Positions 14,882 to 25,626 are shown, counted from the first letter of the stretch. The stretch: 25,626 nt of DNA from a virus (IMGVR_UViG_3300027770_000048), one strand, 5' to 3'. The notes: generated by a model from the letters alone, not told the origin. Numbers and translations: made by a program.

Positions 14882-17440
14882 TTATATTAATTTTTGTTTA
14901 TTTACTCTCACTCCTGTTTCAAATTCATATTCATATAATCCAGTCAATTTTTTTAAAAAATCTCTATCACTTGTATCATATGTTAAATCTTTTGCTAATT
15001 TATGATTTTTTTGAAATCTTTCTTTATTGTTTTTATAAAAATCAATAAAAAATTCTTTGTTATCATTTATACGTTTAATTTCTTTAACGAATGCATATAA
15101 TCGTTCTTTGTGGTCTAATATAGTATCGTAACTATGGTCTATAACATCATCAAACCAATCAAAATTATAACGTTTTTTTATTTCATAAATGTGGTTTGGA
15201 GATGCCAGTATTAGTGGAAATTGAAATGTAACAAATGGTTTAAATGATTTTTCAGTAACGTGTATTTCATTAGTATCAAATTCCGTTTCAGTTGTAATAT
15301 TTACATAGGAATTTTTATAACTTAAATACTCATACGTTCTTCCCCAATCTACATAATCTATATTATCCTCTCTAAACCAATTTTTATCTTCTTCATAGAA
15401 ACTTTTCTTTTGGTCTATATTGATAAAATACACCATATCATCTATCATTTTTTCCATATCCTCATCGGATAAACACGATTGATACAATCCTATTGGATGA
15501 TTTGCATATTTTTGTTTAGCATCCCATCCATTTGCTAATGACCAATCTACATTATCCAAAAGACCATATTGTTTTAACAAAACTAATAAAGAATATCTAT
15601 GTGGTCTAATACGTCTATTATGGCATAAGAAGAATTTACCTTCTTTTTCTGTGGTATATTTTAAGTCTGGCATTGCTTCCATCATAGCTAATCCGATATG
15701 GGTTCTAACTTTTGATGTAGAATATACATTCATTTGACTATTTAATTCTGCTTTATAATCTTCTAATTTAATATTATTATTTACTATCCAAATTTGACTT
15801 TGATTTAAATTATTAAATTTAGTCCAAAAATGAACAAACTTAAAAGTATTAAAACTTTCAAATTCTTGTTCATTTGCCAAAACAACATTAAAGTTTGGAT
15901 TTTCTCGCCAACAATCTATAATCTCTTGTGGAAATGGTAAGATTCTATCTCTAATTTTATTACCTATTTGATTTGGCGTAAGTGTTACGAAATAATAAAA
16001 TTTTCTATTTGGATATTTTGCAACGGTATTAATTGGATATCGTTTAATTCTTTCTTCGGGAAATCCTAAAGACCTAACAAATGATTCTAAATTCATAAGA
16101 AATGAATCTGTGTAAATTTCTTTACAATTCATATCATATGGCTCTTGTAATGTTTCGTTCCAATTATCATAAACTAAGTGTAAATCTACATCATCAATCT
16201 CTGGCTTTACTTCACTTAATTTTTTAAAAAATTTATAATCATAATCGTTACCCCATGCCTTTAATATATTGTGATTTTTTTGAAATCTTTCTTTATTGTT
16301 TTTATAAAAATTAATAAAAAATTCTTTGTTATCATTTATACGTTTAACTTCTTCAACAAATGCGATTAATCTATCCCTATTATTTTCTATATTATCATAA
16401 CTATGATTTATAATATCATCAAAGAAATCCAATTCAGGATATGCTTTTCTAAAATATTCTAAATGATGATATGAAGCTAAAATCATTGGATATTGAAAAT
16501 AGAAAAATGGTTTAAACGATTTTTCAGTAATATGAATATCTTCTCCTACAAAATTAGTTTCGGTTGTAATATTCAAATATGAATTTTCAAAACTATTGGG
16601 TTCGTTTGGCAATCTTTGAATTTCTCTATCATCCAATCCTTCGTATTGAGTTTCATAATTACTTTTTTTAATATCAATTGAAGTAAAATATTCAATTTCA
16701 TCTGATAAATTTAATATATCTTCGGAGTTCAAAATAGAAGTAAATTGTGATTTAGCTTCTTTATCAAAAGACCATCCGTTTATCAACGACCAATTTGTAT
16801 TGTCTAAAATATTATATTTTTTTAATAAACATAATAATCCATACCGATGAATTCTTGGACTTCTATTATGACACAAAAAAAACTGATTTGGAGTTTTTAA
16901 TATTCTATATTTTACTGCAGGATATGTTCCAGAAACTGATGTAGACATTGAACGACTTGCATGCACATTTATACTTGCATTTAATTCTTGTTTATGTTCT
17001 GGTAATTTTTCACCATTATGAATAAACCAAACCTTTTTAGGATTTATTTTATGTAATTTTACTATCTTATCAAGTCTTTCTAAAGATTGTTTTGTTTCAA
17101 ACTCACACTCATTCATTATAATTAAATGTAAATTATTATTAGTTTTAATCATCCGAATTACCTCTTTATTCACAGGTAACATATTATTGGCAAAAAAACG
17201 ATTATTCCAACCATTTCTATTCCATATATGATAATAAAACATTACATCCGGATTATTTGGAACATCTGATAGTTTCCAATTTTTTATAACGGTTCTATGA
17301 TATACCGCCATTGGTTGTGTAGATAACACCCACGTATTCTCATTATCATCTTGATGAATATAATCACTTAATCTATTAGGAAGGGGTAAATCATTTACTT
17401 CATCCCAATCATCATAAACAAAATTTAAAACGTTATCCAT
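14882..17440 (-). CDS. Protein of two tandem homologous ~415-435 aa units, each with a GT10-like TEK motif (putative double glycosyltransferase)
   Basis: Unit 1: VYDDW ... FLCHNRSPRIHR ... ITTET ... HITEKSFKPF. Unit 2 (from about aa 416): VYDNW ... FLCHNRRIRPHR ... ITTET ... HVTEKSFKPF. The TEK motif recalls the GT10 donor-binding motif; the functional call is tentative. Confidence 0.55.
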   Translation of the reverse strand: MDNVLNFVYDDWDEVNDLPLPNRLSDYIHQDDNENTWVLSTQPMAVYHRTVIKNWKLSDVPNNPDVMFYYHIWNRNGWNNRFFANNMLPVNKEVIRMIKTNNNLHLIIMNECEFETKQSLERLDKIVKLHKINPKKVWFIHNGEKLPEHKQELNASINVHASRSMSTSVSGTYPAVKYRILKTPNQFFLCHNRSPRIHRYGLLCLLKKYNILDNTNWSLINGWSFDKEAKSQFTSILNSEDILNLSDEIEYFTSIDIKKSNYETQYEGLDDREIQRLPNEPNSFENSYLNITTETNFVGEDIHITEKSFKPFFYFQYPMILASYHHLEYFRKAYPELDFFDDIINHSYDNIENNRDRLIAFVEEVKRINDNKEFFINFYKNNKERFQKNHNILKAWGNDYDYKFFKKLSEVKPEIDDVDLHLVYDNWNETLQEPYDMNCKEIYTDSFLMNLESFVRSLGFPEERIKRYPINTVAKYPNRKFYYFVTLTPNQIGNKIRDRILPFPQEIIDCWRENPNFNVVLANEQEFESFNTFKFVHFWTKFNNLNQSQIWIVNNNIKLEDYKAELNSQMNVYSTSKVRTHIGLAMMEAMPDLKYTTEKEGKFFLCHNRRIRPHRYSLLVLLKQYGLLDNVDWSLANGWDAKQKYANHPIGLYQSCLSDEDMEKMIDDMVYFINIDQKKSFYEEDKNWFREDNIDYVDWGRTYEYLSYKNSYVNITTETEFDTNEIHVTEKSFKPFVTFQFPLILASPNHIYEIKKRYNFDWFDDVIDHSYDTILDHKERLYAFVKEIKRINDNKEFFIDFYKNNKERFQKNHKLAKDLTYDTSDRDFLKKLTGLYEYEFETGVRVNKQKLI
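15003..15094. repeat. 92-bp direct repeat, copy 1 (in unit 2 of the 852-aa gene)
   Basis: Matches 16272-16363 at 88/92 nt by manual comparison; offset 1269 nt (423 codons). Confidence 0.9.
16272..16363. repeat. 92-bp direct repeat, copy 2 (in unit 1 of the 852-aa gene)
   Basis: Matches 15003-15094 with 4 substitutions. Encodes AFVEEVKRINDNKEFFINFYKNNKERFQKNH versus AFVKEIKRINDNKEFFIDFYKNNKERFQKNH. Confidence 0.9.
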
Positions 17441-18057
17441 TTACCTGTTCCGTAATGCGGCCATTTATTTTTATAATTATACCAAATCACATTAGAAGGT
17501 ATTTCTCTTTTAATTCCACCCCAAGTTTCAATTGTTGGTGTATTAGTTGAAACTCCATTATCTTCGACAACAAATATTATAGGCAAATCCAAATTAGTTG
17601 CGTATTTATGCATTTCATAAAACTGACCTGTTTCAAATGCCATATCACCAATAAAACACCAAACTTTTTCATCACCACCACTTTGTTTAATTCCCATAGC
17701 TGCACCAACCGCAATTGGAATAATTGATGATACAATTGCAGATGCATAAAATTTATCTTTTTCACTAACAATTGTAATACTTCTACCTGCTAATATTTCT
17801 TCTTCTAACCATACCGGACTAATTCCTTTAATTAATGCATGATAATGAGAACGCCAAGTTGAAAATACCCAATCGGTGGATTTCATTCGTTTACCAATTT
17901 CTATTAATTGTTCCTCATTTCCTCCACTCAAATGAACTGGTCCTTTGATTTTTCCTTCTTCCCAATGTTTTACTATAAAATCTTCAAACTTAATTAAAGA
18001 TGTTATGGTTTGTTCAATATCTTTTATAATTGGATATTGTTCTAAATTTTTTATCAT
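17425..18057 (-). CDS. ThDP-dependent enzyme alpha subunit (PDH E1-alpha-like, truncated)
   Basis: GPVHLSGGNE, STWRSH, and the ThDP/Mg motif CFIGDMAFETG...FVVEDNG. It is 210 aa long and ends at WPHYGTG. Confidence 0.87.
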   Translation of the reverse strand: MIKNLEQYPIIKDIEQTITSLIKFEDFIVKHWEEGKIKGPVHLSGGNEEQLIEIGKRMKSTDWVFSTWRSHYHALIKGISPVWLEEEILAGRSITIVSEKDKFYASAIVSSIIPIAVGAAMGIKQSGGDEKVWCFIGDMAFETGQFYEMHKYATNLDLPIIFVVEDNGVSTNTPTIETWGGIKREIPSNVIWYNYKNKWPHYGTGKWITF

Positions 18058-18590
18058 CTATCTCTTTTTTGTAGTGTTGGATTATTAGAAGGCCATTCCA
18101 TTTGATATTCTGGGTCATTCCATTTAACTACACCTTGCTCATTTGCATCTACATAACCATTTTTATAAAATAAATTATAATGAAATATACAATCAGTTAA
18201 TGCGTAGTGGCCGTTTGCAAATCCAGGTGGAACTAATATTTGATTTCTATCTTTATCAGTTATCATAAAAGATTCCCACTCTCCAAAGGTAGTACTATTT
18301 TTTCTCATATCTAATACAATTAGGTAAATATCTCCAACTACGGCTTGAACTAACTTCCAAGTCTTATTATCGTAATGCAATCCTCTTAATACACCTTTAT
18401 ATGATTTTGAGAATCTACCATGTACTTCATTTCCTTCACCTATTTTTGTAATTACAGGGTGTTCACCTGAATGAAAGGTTGTAAATATTTCACCTCTATA
18501 TTCTCTATAAATTGATGGAGTATATGTTGGTACTTCTAATCCAAATTTTTTCGAAGGAGTAATTTGAAACTCATCCCATTTATTACTCAT
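18054..18590 (-). CDS. rmlC: dTDP-4-dehydrorhamnose 3,5-epimerase family (cupin)
   Basis: YRGEIF, SYKGVLRGLHY, KLVQAVVGDIY..VLDMRKNSTTFGEW, LVPPGFANG, WNDP. The nucleotide specificity is not certain. Confidence 0.9.
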   Translation of the reverse strand: MSNKWDEFQITPSKKFGLEVPTYTPSIYREYRGEIFTTFHSGEHPVITKIGEGNEVHGRFSKSYKGVLRGLHYDNKTWKLVQAVVGDIYLIVLDMRKNSTTFGEWESFMITDKDRNQILVPPGFANGHYALTDCIFHYNLFYKNGYVDANEQGVVKWNDPEYQMEWPSNNPTLQKRDR

Positions 18591-18591
18591 A

Positions 18592-19575
18592 CTATGTTTG
18601 ATTTGCGTATCCTAAAGGAAAACCATTTCTAAATTCAAAACCCATTTTTGGTACTATCATTTGATATGCCATTATAAGTTCTTTAATACCTCTATCTAAA
18701 TCCCATTGTGGCCCCCATCCTGTTGCTTCTAACTTATCGTTTGATACAATATAGTTCCTCTTATCTGGGTCCTCATAATAGTCATCGTAGACCACTGCAA
18801 AGTCCTTTACATGAGATTGTATTTTTTCTAATAATTCTTGTTTTGAAAGATTTGCATTACTCAATCCTACATTGAAAACTTCACCTTTATATTTGTCATA
18901 ATGTTGAATCATAAAACAAAAAGTAAATGCTACATCCTGTATATGAATGAAATTTCTTTTGAACGTTTTTTCAAATACAACAACATATTTGTCAGTAATT
19001 GATTTATAAACAAAATCGTTTACTAATAAGTCAGTTCTCATTCTTGACGAAACTCCAAAAACAGTTGCCAATCTAAATATGATTGCATCCGTTGAAGTTC
19101 TTAAAAAGTTTTCAGCATCACATTTAGTTTGTCCGTAAACTGATATTGGAGTAAGTGGAGATTCTTCTGTACATTCCATTTGACCGGTACTTAAACCATA
19201 TCCACTATTTGTATTTGGATATAAAATCTTTTTACCTTTTCCGTTTGTAAATTTAACAATATTAACTATTTGTTGAAAGTTAATTTCTTTTGCTAATTTT
19301 GGGTCTTGTGCACATGCAGGAAATCCTACAATTGCAGCCAATGGAATAATCACATCCGCTTCATCACAAAGTTTTTGTAATAATGATTCGTTACGAACAT
19401 CTCCATGTATAAATTTGAATTTTGACTTTGATATGTATTGTAATAACGAAGTTTGATTGAATAATAATTTATCCAAAACAACTACTTCATAACTTTGTTC
19501 TAATAGTTTTCCAACTAATACCGAACCCAAATAACCTGCACCACCTGTGATTAAAACTTTTTTATTTATATTCAT
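18592..19575 (-). CDS. NAD-dependent NDP-sugar epimerase/dehydratase (extended SDR, canonical YxxxK)
   Basis: VLITGGAGYLGS, GDVR, LAAIVG, YGQTK, FRLATVFG...MRTDLLVN, RNFIHIQDVA. Confidence 0.92.
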   Translation of the reverse strand: MNINKKVLITGGAGYLGSVLVGKLLEQSYEVVVLDKLLFNQTSLLQYISKSKFKFIHGDVRNESLLQKLCDEADVIIPLAAIVGFPACAQDPKLAKEINFQQIVNIVKFTNGKGKKILYPNTNSGYGLSTGQMECTEESPLTPISVYGQTKCDAENFLRTSTDAIIFRLATVFGVSSRMRTDLLVNDFVYKSITDKYVVVFEKTFKRNFIHIQDVAFTFCFMIQHYDKYKGEVFNVGLSNANLSKQELLEKIQSHVKDFAVVYDDYYEDPDKRNYIVSNDKLEATGWGPQWDLDRGIKELIMAYQMIVPKMGFEFRNGFPLGYANQT

Positions 19576-19595
19576 AATATTATTTCATGTTTATT

Positions 19596-20411
19596 TTAAG
19601 GCCCAACAAATGATTGAATTGCAAACCTTTTGAATTTATTTTTAACAAGTTCAATTGAATGACCCACATTAAATTTGGTGAAATCCATTATGACGTAATT
19701 CCCATAAACTGGAATACATTTTACAGCTGACTGATTAAATTCCAAAATTTGTTGGTTATTTGTTTTAATATCTTGTCCTATTAATAATTCACCACCATCA
19801 TCATTATGATATGTAAGTGGGTCTGCCAAATAGAATACTATTACACAAGCTCTTCCTGGATTTATACCATCAAAATGCATTTCGGAAAAATCCCCAGCTT
19901 CATATAAACTATAACCAGTAGCTACTCTAAAGGTATCCTTTTTATCAAATAGTTCGGGATAAATAAGTGAAGTATGTTTTCTAATAACATCTTCAAAATA
20001 AGTATCCATATCCCGTATTTTTTGTGCTTCTGCACCTTCAAAATTTTCTAATTGTAATCTTGACCATTGTTGTGTAGTTCTAATATCTCCACCACCAGCA
20101 ATTACTTGATTAACAAAGTCTTTTCTATTATCCACACGTACATATGGTATTTCCTGTAAAAATTCCTCATCAGTTGGTACTGGTCCAGAATATTCGTTAG
20201 AATTTAAATAATTGTGAGGAGAATTCTGAGCTATAAAATTGTGTCGATAACAATACCATTTTTCTTTTTCATCTGCAGTTTGTCTAAAGTGATTAGTCCA
20301 ATATAAAAACATATCTTCTTTTATACCCGTTAAATCATTAAAAAATTCCTCGAATTTACCAATGTGGTATCCATTGTTTATCAAATTTTTATAGATTTGA
20401 TTATACATCAT
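19596..20411 (-). CDS. 2OG-Fe(II) oxygenase (prolyl 4-hydroxylase-like superfamily)
   Basis: YSLYEAGDFSEMHFDG (HxD), FYLAD...DGGEL, GHSIELV (distal His) and KRFAI (2OG-binding Arg). Confidence 0.85.
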   Translation of the reverse strand: MMYNQIYKNLINNGYHIGKFEEFFNDLTGIKEDMFLYWTNHFRQTADEKEKWYCYRHNFIAQNSPHNYLNSNEYSGPVPTDEEFLQEIPYVRVDNRKDFVNQVIAGGGDIRTTQQWSRLQLENFEGAEAQKIRDMDTYFEDVIRKHTSLIYPELFDKKDTFRVATGYSLYEAGDFSEMHFDGINPGRACVIVFYLADPLTYHNDDGGELLIGQDIKTNNQQILEFNQSAVKCIPVYGNYVIMDFTKFNVGHSIELVKNKFKRFAIQSFVGP

Positions 20412-21499: not shown

Positions 21500-21507
21500 A
21501 TATTTAT
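21500..21507 (+). promoter_or_regulatory. Candidate late-promoter octamer ATATTTAT
   Basis: Lies in the 21-nt intergenic gap, 4 nt before the ATG at 21512. Confidence 0.35.
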
Positions 21508-21511
21508 ACAC

Positions 21512-24187
21512 ATGAATTCATTATTAGAAGCAAATAAACCAAAAGTTACACAATCAATAATCATTTATGGTGGTCGTTTTCAACCATTTCATAAAGGACA
21601 TTACGCAGCATACCAAAATCTAGTATCAGAATTTGGAAACGCAAATGTATATATTGGAACCTCTAACGATACATCTTCCGACAAATCTCCATTTACTTTT
21701 AATGAGAAGAAGGAAATTGCAACTAAGATGTTTGGTATACCAGCATCTAAATTTGTCAAAGTAAACAACCCTTACAGACCCGTAGAGATACTTTCTAAAT
21801 ACGATGGTAAGATTACACAATATATTGCAGCAGTAGGAGAAAAGGATGCCAGTAGGTTAAAGAGTGGATATTTCAAACCATACAAAGGTAAAGCCGGATA
21901 TGGTTATGATGAAGTTGGTTATTACTATACAATACCCGCAGAAGAAAATCCAATTAGTGGAACGGATGTTAGAAAAAAATTAGGAAGTTCAAATAAAGAG
22001 GTAGCTAAAAAGTTTTTCTTAAAAGCATATCCATCGTTTGATAAAGATGTTTTTAAAATGATTACTTCAAAATTAAATGAAAATGGTATGCCAGGTGGAA
22101 TTGGTGTTGGTTTAGTTTTACCTGGTGGATATATTAACGGAGCACCAACAGGTTCTAAAAATGAAATTATCGGTGAAATTGAAAATGAGGTAAACGAATT
22201 TATAACACAATATTTTAATGAAGGTATTTCTGAATCAAAAGAAAACTCAATAAATCACTTTGTGGAGTATGCAACTAAAAAATTAAAGTTAAAAGAAACT
22301 CCAAAAATTACTTTATTAAGTGGTAGAGAATATTCTGAAGCAAAAACCTCTTTAGGTGGGTATAATCCTATGTCTAAAGAAATATATGTTGCAATAGAAG
22401 GTAGACTAACTGCGGACATACTTAGAACTCTTGCACATGAGATGGTTCATAGAAAGCAAGATGAGATGGGTCTGGTAAAAGATGAAATCAAAGATGGTGC
22501 AACAGGTTCTCCAATTGAAAACCAAGCTCATGCAGTAGCCGGTATCTTAATGAGAAACTATGGTAAGATAAATAAACAAATATACAACGAAAGTATTAAT
22601 ATAGATGTTGATAAGGGTGATACTGTATTGATGGGTAAATTTAAAAATAAAAAAGTTGTTGTAAAAGATATTGGAAAGGATGACTACGGAATGCCAACAA
22701 TTAATGGTAAGAAAGCAGCAACATTTAGATTGGGTGATAAAGGACAAAATATATTTAAAAAAGATGAAAATATTGATGAAATGAAATCTACGGATATTCA
22801 TTTTATTAATATTATAAAAATGTATAGAGATTCAACATTTAGAAAAAGAATAAATGCATATCTTTTTGGAAACCCTAATAAAAATAATCCTAATGCAGTA
22901 GCCAGAGAGCTTAGCAATATGAATTATGATGAGATAACTCAAATGGAAAAAGAATTAAATCTTAAACCAGATTTGAATGAATCATTACTATTAGAAGGTG
23001 GAGCATATGGACATATGGCACACCCATTCGATGATATGGATTTAACTTTTGGTGATTTAAAAGATATTATTTCAAAAGCACTTAATGGTGATTTAGGAGT
23101 AGTTAGAGAAAAAACAGATGGCCAAGCTTTAGCAATAAGTTGGAAAAATGGTAGATTGATTGCAGCGAGAAATAAAGGTAATTTAGCAAACGCAGGAGCA
23201 AACGCAATGGGAATAGAGGATGTTGCATCAAAGTTTGGTGGTAGAGGGGGTTTAACAGATGCATACAATTTTGCAATGAAAGATTTATCTGCAGCAATAA
23301 GTGGTTTATCTGATGCACAAAGAAAAAAAATATTCAACGAAGGAAAGTGTTTTATGAATTTGGAAGTAATATGGCCTACATCGGTTAATGTTATTCCTTA
23401 TGGTCAAGCTCTTTTAGTTTTTCATAATACAACTTGTTACGATGAAAAGGGTGTGGCAATTGGAGCAGATGGTGGAGCAGCGGGAACTTTAGCAGGAATG
23501 ATTAAGCAAGTCAACGCAGATGTTCAATCTAAATACACAATACAAGGCCCTCCAATAACTGAAATACCAAAATCGGAAGATTTGAGTTCTAAACAAGGTA
23601 AATATCTTTCAAAACTTTCAAAATTACAATCTGAATTTGGATTAAAAGATTCGGATAATGTTGCAGATTATCATCAAAGTTGGTGGGATTGGTGGATTAC
23701 ATCAAACGCACCTATTAAGGTTGACAAAATTACAAAAGAAGCATTGATTAGAAGATGGGCATTTGGTGATAAAGTATTTAGATTAAATACAATATCAAAT
23801 TTAGAATTACAAAAGTGGGCAATTGACCATGATAAAGTAAATGTTGCAAAACAACAAAAAGATAATATTAAACCATTTGAGGAAATATTTTTAGGTGTAG
23901 GTGCAGATGTATTAGAATTTGTTGGAAGTGTATTAACTGTACATCCTGAAAAGGCAATTCGTGCAATGAAACAAAAATTTGCATCGGTTGCATCACAAGT
24001 TAGAAGTGGTGGTAATCCTGCACAAATACAAAAATTAAAATCAGAATTAGAAAGATTAAATAAATTAGGTGGTATTGAAAAGATAGTAGCAAATGAAGGA
24101 TTGGTATTTGTTTATAATGGTAAAACATATAAACTTACAGGTACTTTTGCACCATTAAATCAGATACTTGGTATTTTTTACTCTTAA
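21512..24187 (+). CDS. Multidomain phage protein: HIGH-family nucleotidyltransferase + HExxH zincin-like domain + two small domains + ligase-like (KxDG) C-terminal domain
   Basis: YGGRFQPFHKGH (HKGH at 21590-21601) and ISGTDVRK; AHEMVH (22436-22450) followed by IENQA; EGGAYGHMAHPFD, REKTDG (K at 23111), NLEV, EGLV (from 24095) and YKL. Confidence 0.82.
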   Translation: MNSLLEANKPKVTQSIIIYGGRFQPFHKGHYAAYQNLVSEFGNANVYIGTSNDTSSDKSPFTFNEKKEIATKMFGIPASKFVKVNNPYRPVEILSKYDGKITQYIAAVGEKDASRLKSGYFKPYKGKAGYGYDEVGYYYTIPAEENPISGTDVRKKLGSSNKEVAKKFFLKAYPSFDKDVFKMITSKLNENGMPGGIGVGLVLPGGYINGAPTGSKNEIIGEIENEVNEFITQYFNEGISESKENSINHFVEYATKKLKLKETPKITLLSGREYSEAKTSLGGYNPMSKEIYVAIEGRLTADILRTLAHEMVHRKQDEMGLVKDEIKDGATGSPIENQAHAVAGILMRNYGKINKQIYNESINIDVDKGDTVLMGKFKNKKVVVKDIGKDDYGMPTINGKKAATFRLGDKGQNIFKKDENIDEMKSTDIHFINIIKMYRDSTFRKRINAYLFGNPNKNNPNAVARELSNMNYDEITQMEKELNLKPDLNESLLLEGGAYGHMAHPFDDMDLTFGDLKDIISKALNGDLGVVREKTDGQALAISWKNGRLIAARNKGNLANAGANAMGIEDVASKFGGRGGLTDAYNFAMKDLSAAISGLSDAQRKKIFNEGKCFMNLEVIWPTSVNVIPYGQALLVFHNTTCYDEKGVAIGADGGAAGTLAGMIKQVNADVQSKYTIQGPPITEIPKSEDLSSKQGKYLSKLSKLQSEFGLKDSDNVADYHQSWWDWWITSNAPIKVDKITKEALIRRWAFGDKVFRLNTISNLELQKWAIDHDKVNVAKQQKDNIKPFEEIFLGVGADVLEFVGSVLTVHPEKAIRAMKQKFASVASQVRSGGNPAQIQKLKSELERLNKLGGIEKIVANEGLVFVYNGKTYKLTGTFAPLNQILGIFYS

Positions 24188-24234: not shown

Positions 24235-24903
24235 ATGGCAAAAAGAAAAAGTTTTGATGAAAAACAAAAGGGGATGCACAAATCTCGTAAACTCATCATT
24301 GACACGGTTTTTGGAAGACAAGATAATAACCAAAGGGTATTTGGTTATGATGGTGAAGTAAAAGAAAAAAGAGAAGTAGGAGATACGTGGACAGACAACG
24401 ATGGTAAAGAGTGGGAACAAAAAGAAGGATTTGTCTCCGCAGTTACTCAAATGGATGACATTAGAAAGTATTTAGATAAATTAAATACTTGTAGTAATGC
24501 AGAATGTCAAACAACCAAACCTTCAATGGCTGATAAAAAATTAATTCGTAAAACCGGATTATGTATTATTTGTTTAGCTAAACAAGAAAGAAAACTTCAA
24601 GAGGATGGGACTTTTCCTTTTTATGAAGATTATAAAATAACTCTTAATAAATTAGGATTTGTTAGAGATACAAAAGCACAATATGAAGAAGCTTTGTTAG
24701 GTATTAAACAACAAATAGAACAAGTTACAGAAGATGGTAGAGTTGAAAAGTGGACATGGGATATTGATATTGAGAAAGTAAAAACGGATTTGAAAAAAGA
24801 TATAGATGGTGCATATGAGGCCATTGAATTATTAATAGAAAGAAAAAGATTATTAGAAGAAAAATTGGTTGAGTTAAATCATCCAGAATTAGTTAAAAAA
24901 TAA
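24235..24903 (+). CDS. Hypothetical phage protein with a Trp-rich hairpin, a Cys4 zinc-ribbon-like motif and a coiled C-terminus
   Basis: REVGDTWTDNDGKEWEQKEG; CSNAEC ... CIIC; heptad-like C-terminal helices. Confidence 0.75.
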   Translation: MAKRKSFDEKQKGMHKSRKLIIDTVFGRQDNNQRVFGYDGEVKEKREVGDTWTDNDGKEWEQKEGFVSAVTQMDDIRKYLDKLNTCSNAECQTTKPSMADKKLIRKTGLCIICLAKQERKLQEDGTFPFYEDYKITLNKLGFVRDTKAQYEEALLGIKQQIEQVTEDGRVEKWTWDIDIEKVKTDLKKDIDGAYEAIELLIERKRLLEEKLVELNHPELVKK

Positions 24904-24908
24904 AAAGT

Positions 24909-25550
24909 ATGAAAAAATTATTAAATTTAAAAAACATTGCAATAGCATTATTAATTGTAATAGTAGTTTTCCAACAATGTGGTGGAGACAAAACGAAAAC
25001 AGGTGAAATTATAAAAGTAGATGGTAAAAAATATGAACTTATTAAACATGAAATTGATACTGTTGAAGTAGTTAAGACTAAGGTAGTAACTAAAAAAGGT
25101 GAAGATATTTATCATGAAACAATTAAAGAAGTGACCATTCCTGCAATTGTAGATACTCAAGCTTTATTACAAGACTATTTTGCAAAGAACATTTATAAAG
25201 ATACATTACAATTACCAGATAGTTTAGGTATCGTATCTTTAATTGATACGATTACTCAAAACAAAATATTAGGTAGAACATTTAATGCAAGTGTTAAACA
25301 AAGAGTTATTAAAGAAACTACAGTTGTAAAAGAATTACCAAAGACTAAACTATTTTATGGTTTTGAAGGTGGATTTAACAAAGCAGATGTAGTATCTCAT
25401 TTAGGATTTGGTGTTTTAGTTAATACAAAAAAAGATAAGATGTTCCATTTAGGATTGGGAGTTGCAAATAGAACAACCGATGGTACAAGTGGAGCATTGT
25501 CACCTTATATCGGTGGTGGTGTGTATTGGAAATTGAAACTTAAAAAATAA
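24909..25550 (+). CDS. Membrane-anchored or exported protein of Bacteroidota-phage type, possibly lysis-related (spanin-like)
   Basis: Basic N-region, then hydrophobic IAIALLIVIVVF, then QQC. Several DT/DS motifs and a C-terminal amphipathic beta region ending PYIGGGVYWKL. Confidence 0.6.
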   Translation: MKKLLNLKNIAIALLIVIVVFQQCGGDKTKTGEIIKVDGKKYELIKHEIDTVEVVKTKVVTKKGEDIYHETIKEVTIPAIVDTQALLQDYFAKNIYKDTLQLPDSLGIVSLIDTITQNKILGRTFNASVKQRVIKETTVVKELPKTKLFYGFEGGFNKADVVSHLGFGVLVNTKKDKMFHLGLGVANRTTDGTSGALSPYIGGGVYWKLKLKK

Positions 25551-25626
25551 TGGGAGTTCAAGGGCAACCTAAGAAAACATTAAAAGAAATAATAGCTGAA
25601 GAATATCGTAAATGTGCGTTAGACCC
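25550..25626 (+). CDS. Probable terminase large subunit (T4 gp17-like), N-terminal fragment running off the window; not in the ORF track
   Basis: The ATG overlaps the upstream stop (TAATG). MGVQGQPKKTLKEIIAEEYRKCALDP matches the EEYxKCxxDP N-terminal motif of T4-like TerL proteins. Only 26 codons are visible. Confidence 0.72.
   Translation, partial: MGVQGQPKKTLKEIIAEEYRKCALD

What the first reader, a model, noticed from the sequence alone, without database searches (positions are those of the whole stretch)
21512..24187. Candidate capsid-packaged polyprotein: hydrophobic-x-Glu motifs mark every domain boundary
Seen: LLE (aa 4-6) precedes the nucleotidyltransferase and LNE (188-190) follows it. 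FNE/ISE (from 235) precedes the HExxH domain and YNE (358-360) follows it. IDE (421-423) separates two ~60-aa domains, and LNE-S-LLLE (488-495) precedes the C-terminal domain. Known: T4 prohead protease gp21 cleaves after Glu in (I/L)-x-E motifs in head proteins, including internal proteins that are later injected. Inference: this protein is packaged, cut into about five modules during head maturation and delivered to the host as a set of effectors (nucleotidyltransferase, metalloprotease-like, ligase-like).
Basis: partly seen in the sequence, partly recalled or inferred. Interest (0 to 1): 0.8.

Follow-up and report, generated by a model that had tools for sequence, protein, structure and literature searches.

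The report
Phage head-cargo polyprotein with cut sites
An uncultured T4-like phage strings five small protein modules, including an NAD-synthesis-type enzyme, a zinc-peptidase fold and an unnamed RNA-ligase-like enzyme, into one chain whose joints carry the cut motif of the phage's own head protease, so it is probably packed into the capsid, cut up and injected with the DNA, though no one has measured this.

Summary
The 891-aa ORF lies just upstream of terminase; in close relatives portal and a gp21-type protease follow, and scaffold and capsid genes in the longest contigs. AlphaFold gives five domains on disordered linkers. Seven of nine (I/L)-x-E motifs fall at linkers (p=0.0004 against other Glu). 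Across 150 diverse relatives modules change order, yet each starts or ends at the motif, well above shuffles. Swap points found without using the motif lie at it (14/35 against 4.4 expected). The motif is depleted about two-fold inside folded cores. One cassette also sits, between the same motifs, in another head gene. Modules: NMNAT/PPAT-like HIGH transferase, minigluzincin fold, two small unknowns, and an RNA-ligase-fold domain akin to DUF6267. Distant cyanophage relatives with T4-style leaders are reported in virions. Packaging, cutting, ejection and substrates are inferred; 21% of relatives lack the Glu before the ligase. I found no paper describing it; this scan noted the same family on other DNA several times.

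The parts
21501..21508 (+). TATTTATA, candidate late-promoter motif (variant of T4 TATAAATA), 3 nt before the ATG
   Evidence: Present a few nt before the ATG in all close homolog loci listed; in the complete relative G001 it is strand-biased (53 vs 16) and lies upstream of many structural genes. Function inferred.
21512..24187 (+). 891-aa modular polyprotein gene (P0001)
   Evidence: family of 64 IMG/VR loci and 1793 50%-identity clusters for the C-terminal domain
21512..21529 (+). 6-residue N-terminal leader ending in LLE, like the T4 Alt propeptide (ITE-6)
   Evidence: 61 of 65 relatives with an N-terminal transferase have (I/L)-x-E in the leader despite varied sequence; PMC5694885
21530..22081 (+). 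HIGH-superfamily nucleotidyltransferase (HKGH at aa 27-30), NMNAT/PPAT-like; ends at LNE 188-190
   Evidence: Pfam PF01467 E 6e-7; phrog_395/3041; VIA Z 11.8 NadM, 11.5 NadD, 10.9 PPAT, tied
22082..22234 (+). Gly-rich peptide (aa 191-218) and acidic spacer (219-241) with IGE, VNE, FNE, ISE; main insertion hot spot in relatives
   Evidence: pLDDT<50 at 191-239; breakpoints at 190, 215-220, 231-241
22235..22591 (+). Zincin-fold module, HEMVH at aa 309-313 plus downstream Glu336; ends at YNE 358-360
   Evidence: VIA Z 9.0 to YbeY-type AQ_1354 (rmsd 2.6, 102 aligned), 8.3 to SprT, 7.2 to Wss1/selecase; HExxH in 17/17; present in only 18 of 151 diverse relatives
22592..22780 (+). Small all-beta module (KOW/SH3-like appearance, unnamed); ends at IDE 421-423
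   Evidence: strands in the model at low confidence; mobile, 52 copies in varied positions, nearly always starting right after Glu; look-alike stand-alone 62-78 aa viral proteins in the ESM Atlas, score 0.88-0.90, a lead only
22781..22981 (+). Small four-helix module, unnamed; ends at LNE 488-490
   Evidence: follows a hydrophobic-x-Glu in 10/10 relatives; also inserted between IDE and IKE in another head-locus gene of L063
22973..22996 (+). Double site LNE-S-LLLE before the ligase domain
   Evidence: P3 L/I in 96%, P1 Glu in 77%, P2 spread over 14 residues; unstructured (pLDDT<50) even in a 102-sequence model with mean pLDDT 93
22997..24184 (+). RNA-ligase-fold (covalent nucleotidyltransferase) domain, KTDG at aa 534-537, with a large helical insert; structural kin of DUF6267
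   Evidence: KxDG in 141/142, motif IV EG in 140/142; the seven best VIA hits are all RNA ligases, Z 7.7-8.9, rmsd 4.0-6.0, about 185-205 aligned; TM 0.62-0.70 to DUF6267 clusters
25550..25626 (+). Start of the large terminase gene, marking the head-morphogenesis block
   Evidence: tblastn to the G001 terminase-like protein, 80% identity; same gene order as the annotated Mel-JY01 region

Best explanation
A late-expressed internal head protein of a T4-like phage, built as a chain of cassettes. Its leader targets it to the prohead core, as for T4 Alt and the internal proteins. During maturation the phage's gp21-type protease cuts after Glu at the hydrophobic-x-Glu sites in the unfolded joints, removes leader and spacers, and leaves a transferase, a zincin, two small proteins and an RNA-ligase-like enzyme as separate pieces. 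These stay with the DNA and are ejected into the host, most likely to repair RNA (tRNA) ends or restore nucleotide cofactors early in infection. One targeting signal thus delivers many cargos, and new cargos are gained by in-frame insertion at an existing site. Shown: gene context, domain layout, motif statistics, cassette swapping, folds. Inferred: packaging (about 0.8), cutting at most joints (about 0.7), ejection (about 0.6), RNA-repair or anti-defence role (about 0.4).
For: Context: terminase follows in essentially every locus long enough, then portal and gp21; PF03420 over cut-off in 5/5 and gp23 in 4/5 long contigs. Their scaffold starts with an LKE leader and portal ends in LTE. Flank windows versus within-window shuffles for (I/L)-x-E: transferase upstream 69/83 vs 31, downstream 78/103 vs 32.5, zincin upstream 13/17 vs 4.2, ligase upstream 110/141 vs 43; core windows 1-7%. 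Junctions defined from alignments alone: 14, 19 and 23 of 35 lie within 4 aa of the strict, medium and broad motif, against 4.4, 5.5 and 8.1 expected, beyond all 1000 random draws. Core depletion: observed/expected 0.50-0.64, versus 0.96-1.18 in non-virion control enzymes. Order of modules is shuffled. The helical cassette is inserted at the motif in a second head gene, whose 12 close orthologs lack it. A stand-alone gene with an MIKLKDLLKE leader is 60% identical to a cassette of another family member. Cyanophage NMNAT/cytidylyltransferase-like proteins are reported in virions (PMC10665884, PMC9602691); S-CREM2 gp154 and the matching S-SCSM1 ORF begin with T4-like leaders ending in LTE-10 and LKE-10, and gp154 aligns to this transferase (24%, E 6e-6). 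Cassettes in relatives include CCA-adding/poly(A) polymerase, HD, AAA_33/Zeta-type kinase and 2H domains, which fits RNA end repair.
Against: No proteomics for this clade. The virion papers themselves warn of co-purification, and those proteins are distant. 21% of relatives have Cys or Met instead of the pre-ligase Glu, although 26 of 32 such cases have another motif within 30 aa. Nine to twelve of 35 junction classes are not near even a broad motif. FNE and YNE fall outside the T4 I/L rule, and this protease's specificity is unmeasured. Homologs are related, so the shuffle and depletion counts overstate independence. HxGH is intact in only 60/104 transferases. No NAMPT/NAPRTase was found in the complete relative or Mel-JY01, which weakens an NAD-salvage role.
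Confidence: 0.62

Rival explanations
1. The protein is packaged, but only the leader and some spacers are removed. The internal motifs act mainly as repeated core-binding tags or are cut only partly, so a multidomain enzyme is delivered, as with N4 virion RNAP-type polyvalent proteins.
For: In T4, targeting and processing are separable within the CTS (PMC9026906); incomplete cleavage is documented in SPN3US (PMC10052503); Cys/Met variants at the pre-ligase site; transferase and ligase stay linked in most relatives.
Against: Fixed P3/P1 with free P2 at a fixed distance from each module's start, in unstructured chain, and depletion of the motif in cores, fit a cutting site better than a binding tag.
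Confidence: 0.16
2. The protein is cut in the prohead but the pieces are not ejected: they leave with scaffold fragments, act during head maturation or packaging, or act late in the producing cell.
For: T4 gp22, gp67 and gp68 are cut at many sites and exit (PMC5694885); the gene sits in the head block with a late-type motif.
Against: Folded cores avoid the motif, as expected if they must survive; the cargo varies quickly and includes RNA-repair enzymes, which suits a host-facing role.
Confidence: 0.11
3. The motifs are scars: CTS-bearing genes fused, or short A-rich DNA microhomologies favoured recombination there, and the protein is a soluble multi-enzyme that never meets the protease.
For: Stand-alone relatives of some cassettes carry CTS-like leaders; the genome is AT-rich. 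DNA-level microhomology was not tested.
Against: The motif is kept at protein level across ligase domains only 40-60% identical, with P2 free to vary; cores are depleted while control enzymes are not.
Confidence: 0.07
4. The chain processes itself with its zincin, as proposed for polyvalent proteins (PMC5512222).
For: Intact HExxH plus third ligand, minigluzincin fold; precedent proposed for P1 DdrB.
Against: Only 18 of 151 diverse relatives have the zincin, and those without it keep the motif (93/124 before the ligase, 65/89 after the transferase).
Confidence: 0.04

Closest known systems
T4 Alt and internal proteins IPI-III (capsid targeting sequence, gp21 processing, ejection)
   Same: Short leader ending in (I/L)-x-E (Alt ITE-6; PMC5694885), same protease family nearby, variable cargo behind a conserved signal (PMC3012670).
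   Different: T4 cargos lose only terminal propeptides. Here every internal joint carries a site, several unrelated folds share one chain, and cassettes swap at the sites.
Polyvalent proteins of phages and conjugative elements (Iyer et al. 2017, PMC5512222)
   Same: Multi-domain, variable architecture, zincin module, proposed head packaging and injection.
   Different: Those are proposed to self-process by their zincin; here the zincin is optional and the joints match the prohead protease. The constant core is a HIGH transferase plus a ligase-fold domain; no MuF, ArdC-N or LPD hit in the Pfam scans.
Cyanophage virion NMNAT/cytidylyltransferase proteins (S-CREM2 gp154, S-SCSM1 ORF91) and the S-PM2 DUF6267-cytidyltransferase fusion
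   Same: HIGH transferase in phrog_3041; T4-like leader; reported in virions; S-PM2 fuses the transferase to a KxDG domain of the same predicted fold (Foldseek E 2e-5).
   Different: Only about 24% identity; S-PM2 has the reverse domain order; no sequence-level DUF6267 hit here; fewer modules.
RNA ligases Rnl1/Rnl2/Rnl5, REL1, Trl1 (covalent nucleotidyltransferase superfamily)
   Same: KxDG lysine motif and motifs III-V; seven best structural matches are RNA ligases.
   Different: About 140-residue helical insert before motifs IV-V, no OB domain, Z only 7.7-8.9, 10-15% identity; substrate untested.

Membership tests
T4-type CTS/gp21-processed internal head proteins | gp21-family protease with portal, scaffold and gp23 in the same phage | tested here: met
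   In close relatives (95% identical L003 and others); the window itself ends at the terminase start
T4-type CTS/gp21-processed internal head proteins | Short N-terminal leader ending in (I/L)-x-E | tested here: met
   LLE-6; 61/65 relatives; control window enzymes 2/20
T4-type CTS/gp21-processed internal head proteins | Present in purified virions and cleaved after Glu | not testable with these tools
   Only indirect: distant cyanophage homologs reported in virions
T4-type CTS/gp21-processed internal head proteins | Ejected into the host with the DNA | not testable with these tools
   none
Polyvalent proteins (Iyer 2017) | Two or more unrelated effector-type domains in variable architectures | tested here: met
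Polyvalent proteins (Iyer 2017) | Zincin MPTase of the polyvalent clades as hub and self-processing enzyme | tested here: inconclusive
   Zincin fold present here but in 18/151 relatives; clade not tested
HIGH-superfamily nucleotidyltransferase (PF01467) | HxGH motif, Rossmann-like fold, Pfam score over cut-off | tested here: met
   30.2 bits vs cut-off 21
NMNAT (NadM/NadD) specifically | Closer to NMNAT than to PPAT or cytidylyltransferases; NMN substrate; salvage partner NadV | tested here: inconclusive
   Z 11.8/11.5 vs PPAT 10.9, tied; no PF04095 in 4 records
ATP-dependent RNA ligase superfamily fold | KxDG motif I, motifs III-V, adenylation-domain fold | tested here: met
   16/102 members hit PF09414 weakly, best E 0.0045
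ATP-dependent RNA ligase superfamily fold | Joins RNA ends | not testable with these tools
   inferred from fold and from RNA-repair cassettes in relatives
DUF6267 (PF19782) | Profile match over the Pfam cut-off | tested here: not met
   No hit for P0001; hhalign of alignment A2 to the S-PM2 piece, probability 0.2; fold similar, TM 0.62-0.70

The most novel reading that the evidence does not exclude
A large clade of T4-like aquatic phages uses a true polyprotein strategy: one capsid-targeted chain is cut by the prohead protease into several active enzymes, forming an injected RNA-repair and counter-defence kit around a previously unnamed RNA ligase family. The protease site doubles as the joint at which cassettes are exchanged between this gene and other head genes.
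Probability: 0.45. Interest if true: 0.8.

Novelty: new variant of a known kind. Interest (0 to 1): 0.62.

Why it matters
If true, it extends T4's capsid-targeting system from single cargos to multi-enzyme polyproteins matured by the head protease, a strategy familiar from RNA viruses but not described for gp21 in the papers I could search. It gives a sequence rule for listing injected proteins in uncultured phages, names a large unannotated RNA-ligase-like family (1793 clusters at 50% identity), offers an explanation for the 'cytidyltransferases' repeatedly seen in cyanophage virions, and suggests how to load several proteins into one capsid. A cultured carrier exists (Mel-JY01), so it is directly testable.

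Tried and rejected
No own genome is held, so head genes were checked in relatives. Sequence searches of PDB with the ligase profile gave only spurious ribosomal S6 hits; Foldseek on the full model saw only the transferase. hhalign to the S-PM2 KxDG domain was not significant. An apparent shared small module between S-SCSM1 ORF91 and L008 was not confirmed by BLAST. No Pfam or Atlas family for the helical module, and none named for the beta module. No NAMPT/NAPRTase in four records. The sigma-70 scan found fewer sites than shuffles. Metatranscriptome contigs hold only short, mostly 85-95% alike pieces and cannot show transcription. Paper searches for Mel-JY01, DUF6267 and gp21-cut polyproteins found no description of this system; the library lacks most subscription papers. 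A genome-wide count of N-terminal motifs by region in G001 was only mildly enriched in the head block (8/18 vs 5/30) and is not used as evidence. No complex prediction was run.

Full report
Observation. The ORF at 21512-24187 (+) encodes 891 aa. The strict (I/L)-x-E motif occurs 9 times; the broad hydrophobic-x-Glu motif, needed for FNE and YNE, occurs 24 times. An AlphaFold2 model (26 sequences, mean pLDDT 68, pTM 0.34) shows five domains on low-confidence linkers at 1-6, 191-239, 359-365, 404-427 and 484-503. Taking these linkers with 2 residues of slack, 7 of 14 linker Glu and 2 of 42 core Glu have I/L at P3 (p=0.0004); without slack p=0.016; with the broad motif p=0.027.

Context. The window is an AT-rich phage stretch of glycosylation and metabolic genes that ends at the start of a large terminase gene. 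In 64 IMG/VR loci the gene is followed by terminase, portal, core genes and a gp21-type protease wherever the contig is long enough, including L003 at 95% identity. PF03420 scores over cut-off in 5 of 5 long contigs and gp23 in 4 of 5. In the complete 209-kb relative the scaffold begins with a leader ending in LKE, the portal ends in LTE, and several small genes begin MIKLKDLLKE, so the clade's head proteins carry the same motif. A TATTTATA motif precedes the gene in close homologs and many structural genes; I read it as a late promoter (inference). The only cultured carrier found is Microcystis phage Mel-JY01, with the same gene order.

Modularity. Close homologs run from about 680 to 1560 aa, with insertions at residues 190, 215-241, 360, 418-423 and 488-492 of the query. 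Among 150 representatives at 50% identity, transferase and ligase are the usual core, while the zincin (18), beta (52) and helical (10) modules are optional and change order. Sixteen-residue flanks hold the strict motif far more often than shuffles of the same windows: 69/83 vs 31 and 78/103 vs 32.5 around the transferase, 13/17 vs 4.2 before the zincin, 110/141 vs 43 before the ligase; windows inside cores hold it in 1-7%. Before the ligase, P3 is L/I in 96%, P1 is Glu in 77% and P2 varies over 14 residues, and this stretch stays unstructured in a 102-sequence model of mean pLDDT 93. Junctions defined only by where pairwise homology stops or resumes fall within 4 aa of the motif in 14 (strict), 19 and 23 (broad) of 35 classes, against 4.4, 5.5 and 8.1 expected, beyond all 1000 draws. 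Inside cores the motif is depleted (observed/expected 0.50-0.64; 140 of 152 ligase domains below expectation), whereas control enzymes give 0.96-1.18. These sequences are related, so the counts are not independent. An independent case: the helical module is inserted between IDE and IKE in a different head-locus gene of L063, at the site where 12 close orthologs have a single acidic site before Met. A stand-alone gene with an MIKLKDLLKE leader is 60% identical to a cassette in P0142.

Modules. Residues 7-190: HIGH nucleotidyltransferase (PF01467), equally close to NadM, NadD and PPAT (Z 11.8, 11.5, 10.9); substrate open, and no NAMPT partner was found. Residues 242-360: zincin fold like YbeY, SprT, Wss1 and selecase (Z 7.2-9.0); peptidase or nuclease activity untested. 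Residues 361-423 and 424-490: small beta and helical modules without a family. Residues 496-891: invariant KxDG and motif IV/V residues; the seven best structural matches are RNA ligases at Z 7.7-8.9, and the fold is shared with DUF6267 without a sequence match. Cassettes of relatives include CCA-adding/poly(A) polymerase, HD, AAA_33/Zeta-type kinases, a 2H domain and DUF5661, the usual partners of RNA end repair (established knowledge).

Mechanism. T4 gp21 removes leaders from Alt (ITE-6, also LTE-619) and the internal proteins, which are ejected, and degrades the core proteins (PMC5694885; PMC9026906). The simplest reading is that this chain is targeted by its leader, cut at its joints in the prohead and ejected as separate proteins. 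NMNAT/cytidylyltransferase-like proteins are reported in virions of S-CREM2 and S-SCSM1, with the authors' caveat about co-purification (PMC10665884, PMC9602691); both start with 10-residue T4-like leaders, and the S-CREM2 protein is a distant homolog of the transferase. Against: no direct data; 21% of relatives have Cys or Met at the pre-ligase P1, though 26 of 32 have another motif within 30 aa; a third of junction classes are not at a motif; HxGH is altered in 44 of 104 transferases. Self-processing by the zincin, proposed for polyvalent proteins (PMC5512222), is unlikely because relatives without it keep the motifs.

Novelty and verdict. It works like T4 CTS cargo and resembles polyvalent proteins, but internal, multi-site processing into separate enzymes with cassette exchange at the sites was not found in the searched literature. 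Earlier notes of this scan reached the same reading on other genomes; I count them as leads, not support. Observation confirmed; interpretation partly supported; new variant of a known kind; confidence 0.62; interest 0.62.

Noticed in passing
window 21501-21508 and L076/L077 region of G001: TATTTATA lies only 3-4 nt before the ATG of this gene in close relatives; if it is the late promoter, the mRNA would be leaderless or nearly so. Elsewhere its distance to the ATG varies from about 4 to 45 nt.
   Followed up: partly
P0141, P0146, P0175, P0192, P0197 and others: About 12% of relatives have Cys and 9% Met in place of the pre-ligase Glu. Met could serve as an internal start giving the same N-terminus; several Cys variants follow a ROS/MucR-like zinc-finger cassette (L051, P0146). 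Untested.
   Followed up: partly
L063:19526-20533: A DUF3008-like head-locus gene between portal and gp21 is itself modular at the same motifs and has captured the helical module of P0001.
   Followed up: yes
G001 27484-27837, 40611-41618, 153364-153792, 152693-152992: Several unrelated small genes begin with an MIKLKDLLKE-type leader, candidate capsid-targeting sequences.
   Followed up: partly
P0136: A relative carries two tandem CCA-adding-enzyme-like cassettes and an HD cassette, each bordered by hydrophobic-x-Glu, and no HIGH transferase.
   Followed up: partly
L092:486-2265 (S-PM2, NC_006820): The DUF6267-cytidyltransferase gene is split across two frames in this record, whereas the structure library lists a 591-aa protein for S-PM2; probably a sequence error in the older record.
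   Followed up: no
window 1-21318: About 21 kb island of glycosyltransferase-like, methyltransferase-like, two radical-SAM-like, NDP-sugar epimerase, transketolase/E1 and 2OG-Fe(II) oxygenase genes, part of it on the minus strand (14882-20411); variable between relatives.
   Followed up: no
window 24235-25550: Two conserved genes sit between the polyprotein and terminase: a 222-aa protein with four Cys (zinc-binding candidate, possibly a small terminase or regulator) and a 213-aa protein with an N-terminal hydrophobic stretch and Cys (lipoprotein or spanin-like). No confident family.
   Followed up: no
transferase domains of diverse relatives: HxGH is replaced by GxHH-type variants (GPHH, GKHH) in about a third of the family; these may be altered or inactive enzymes.
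   Followed up: partly
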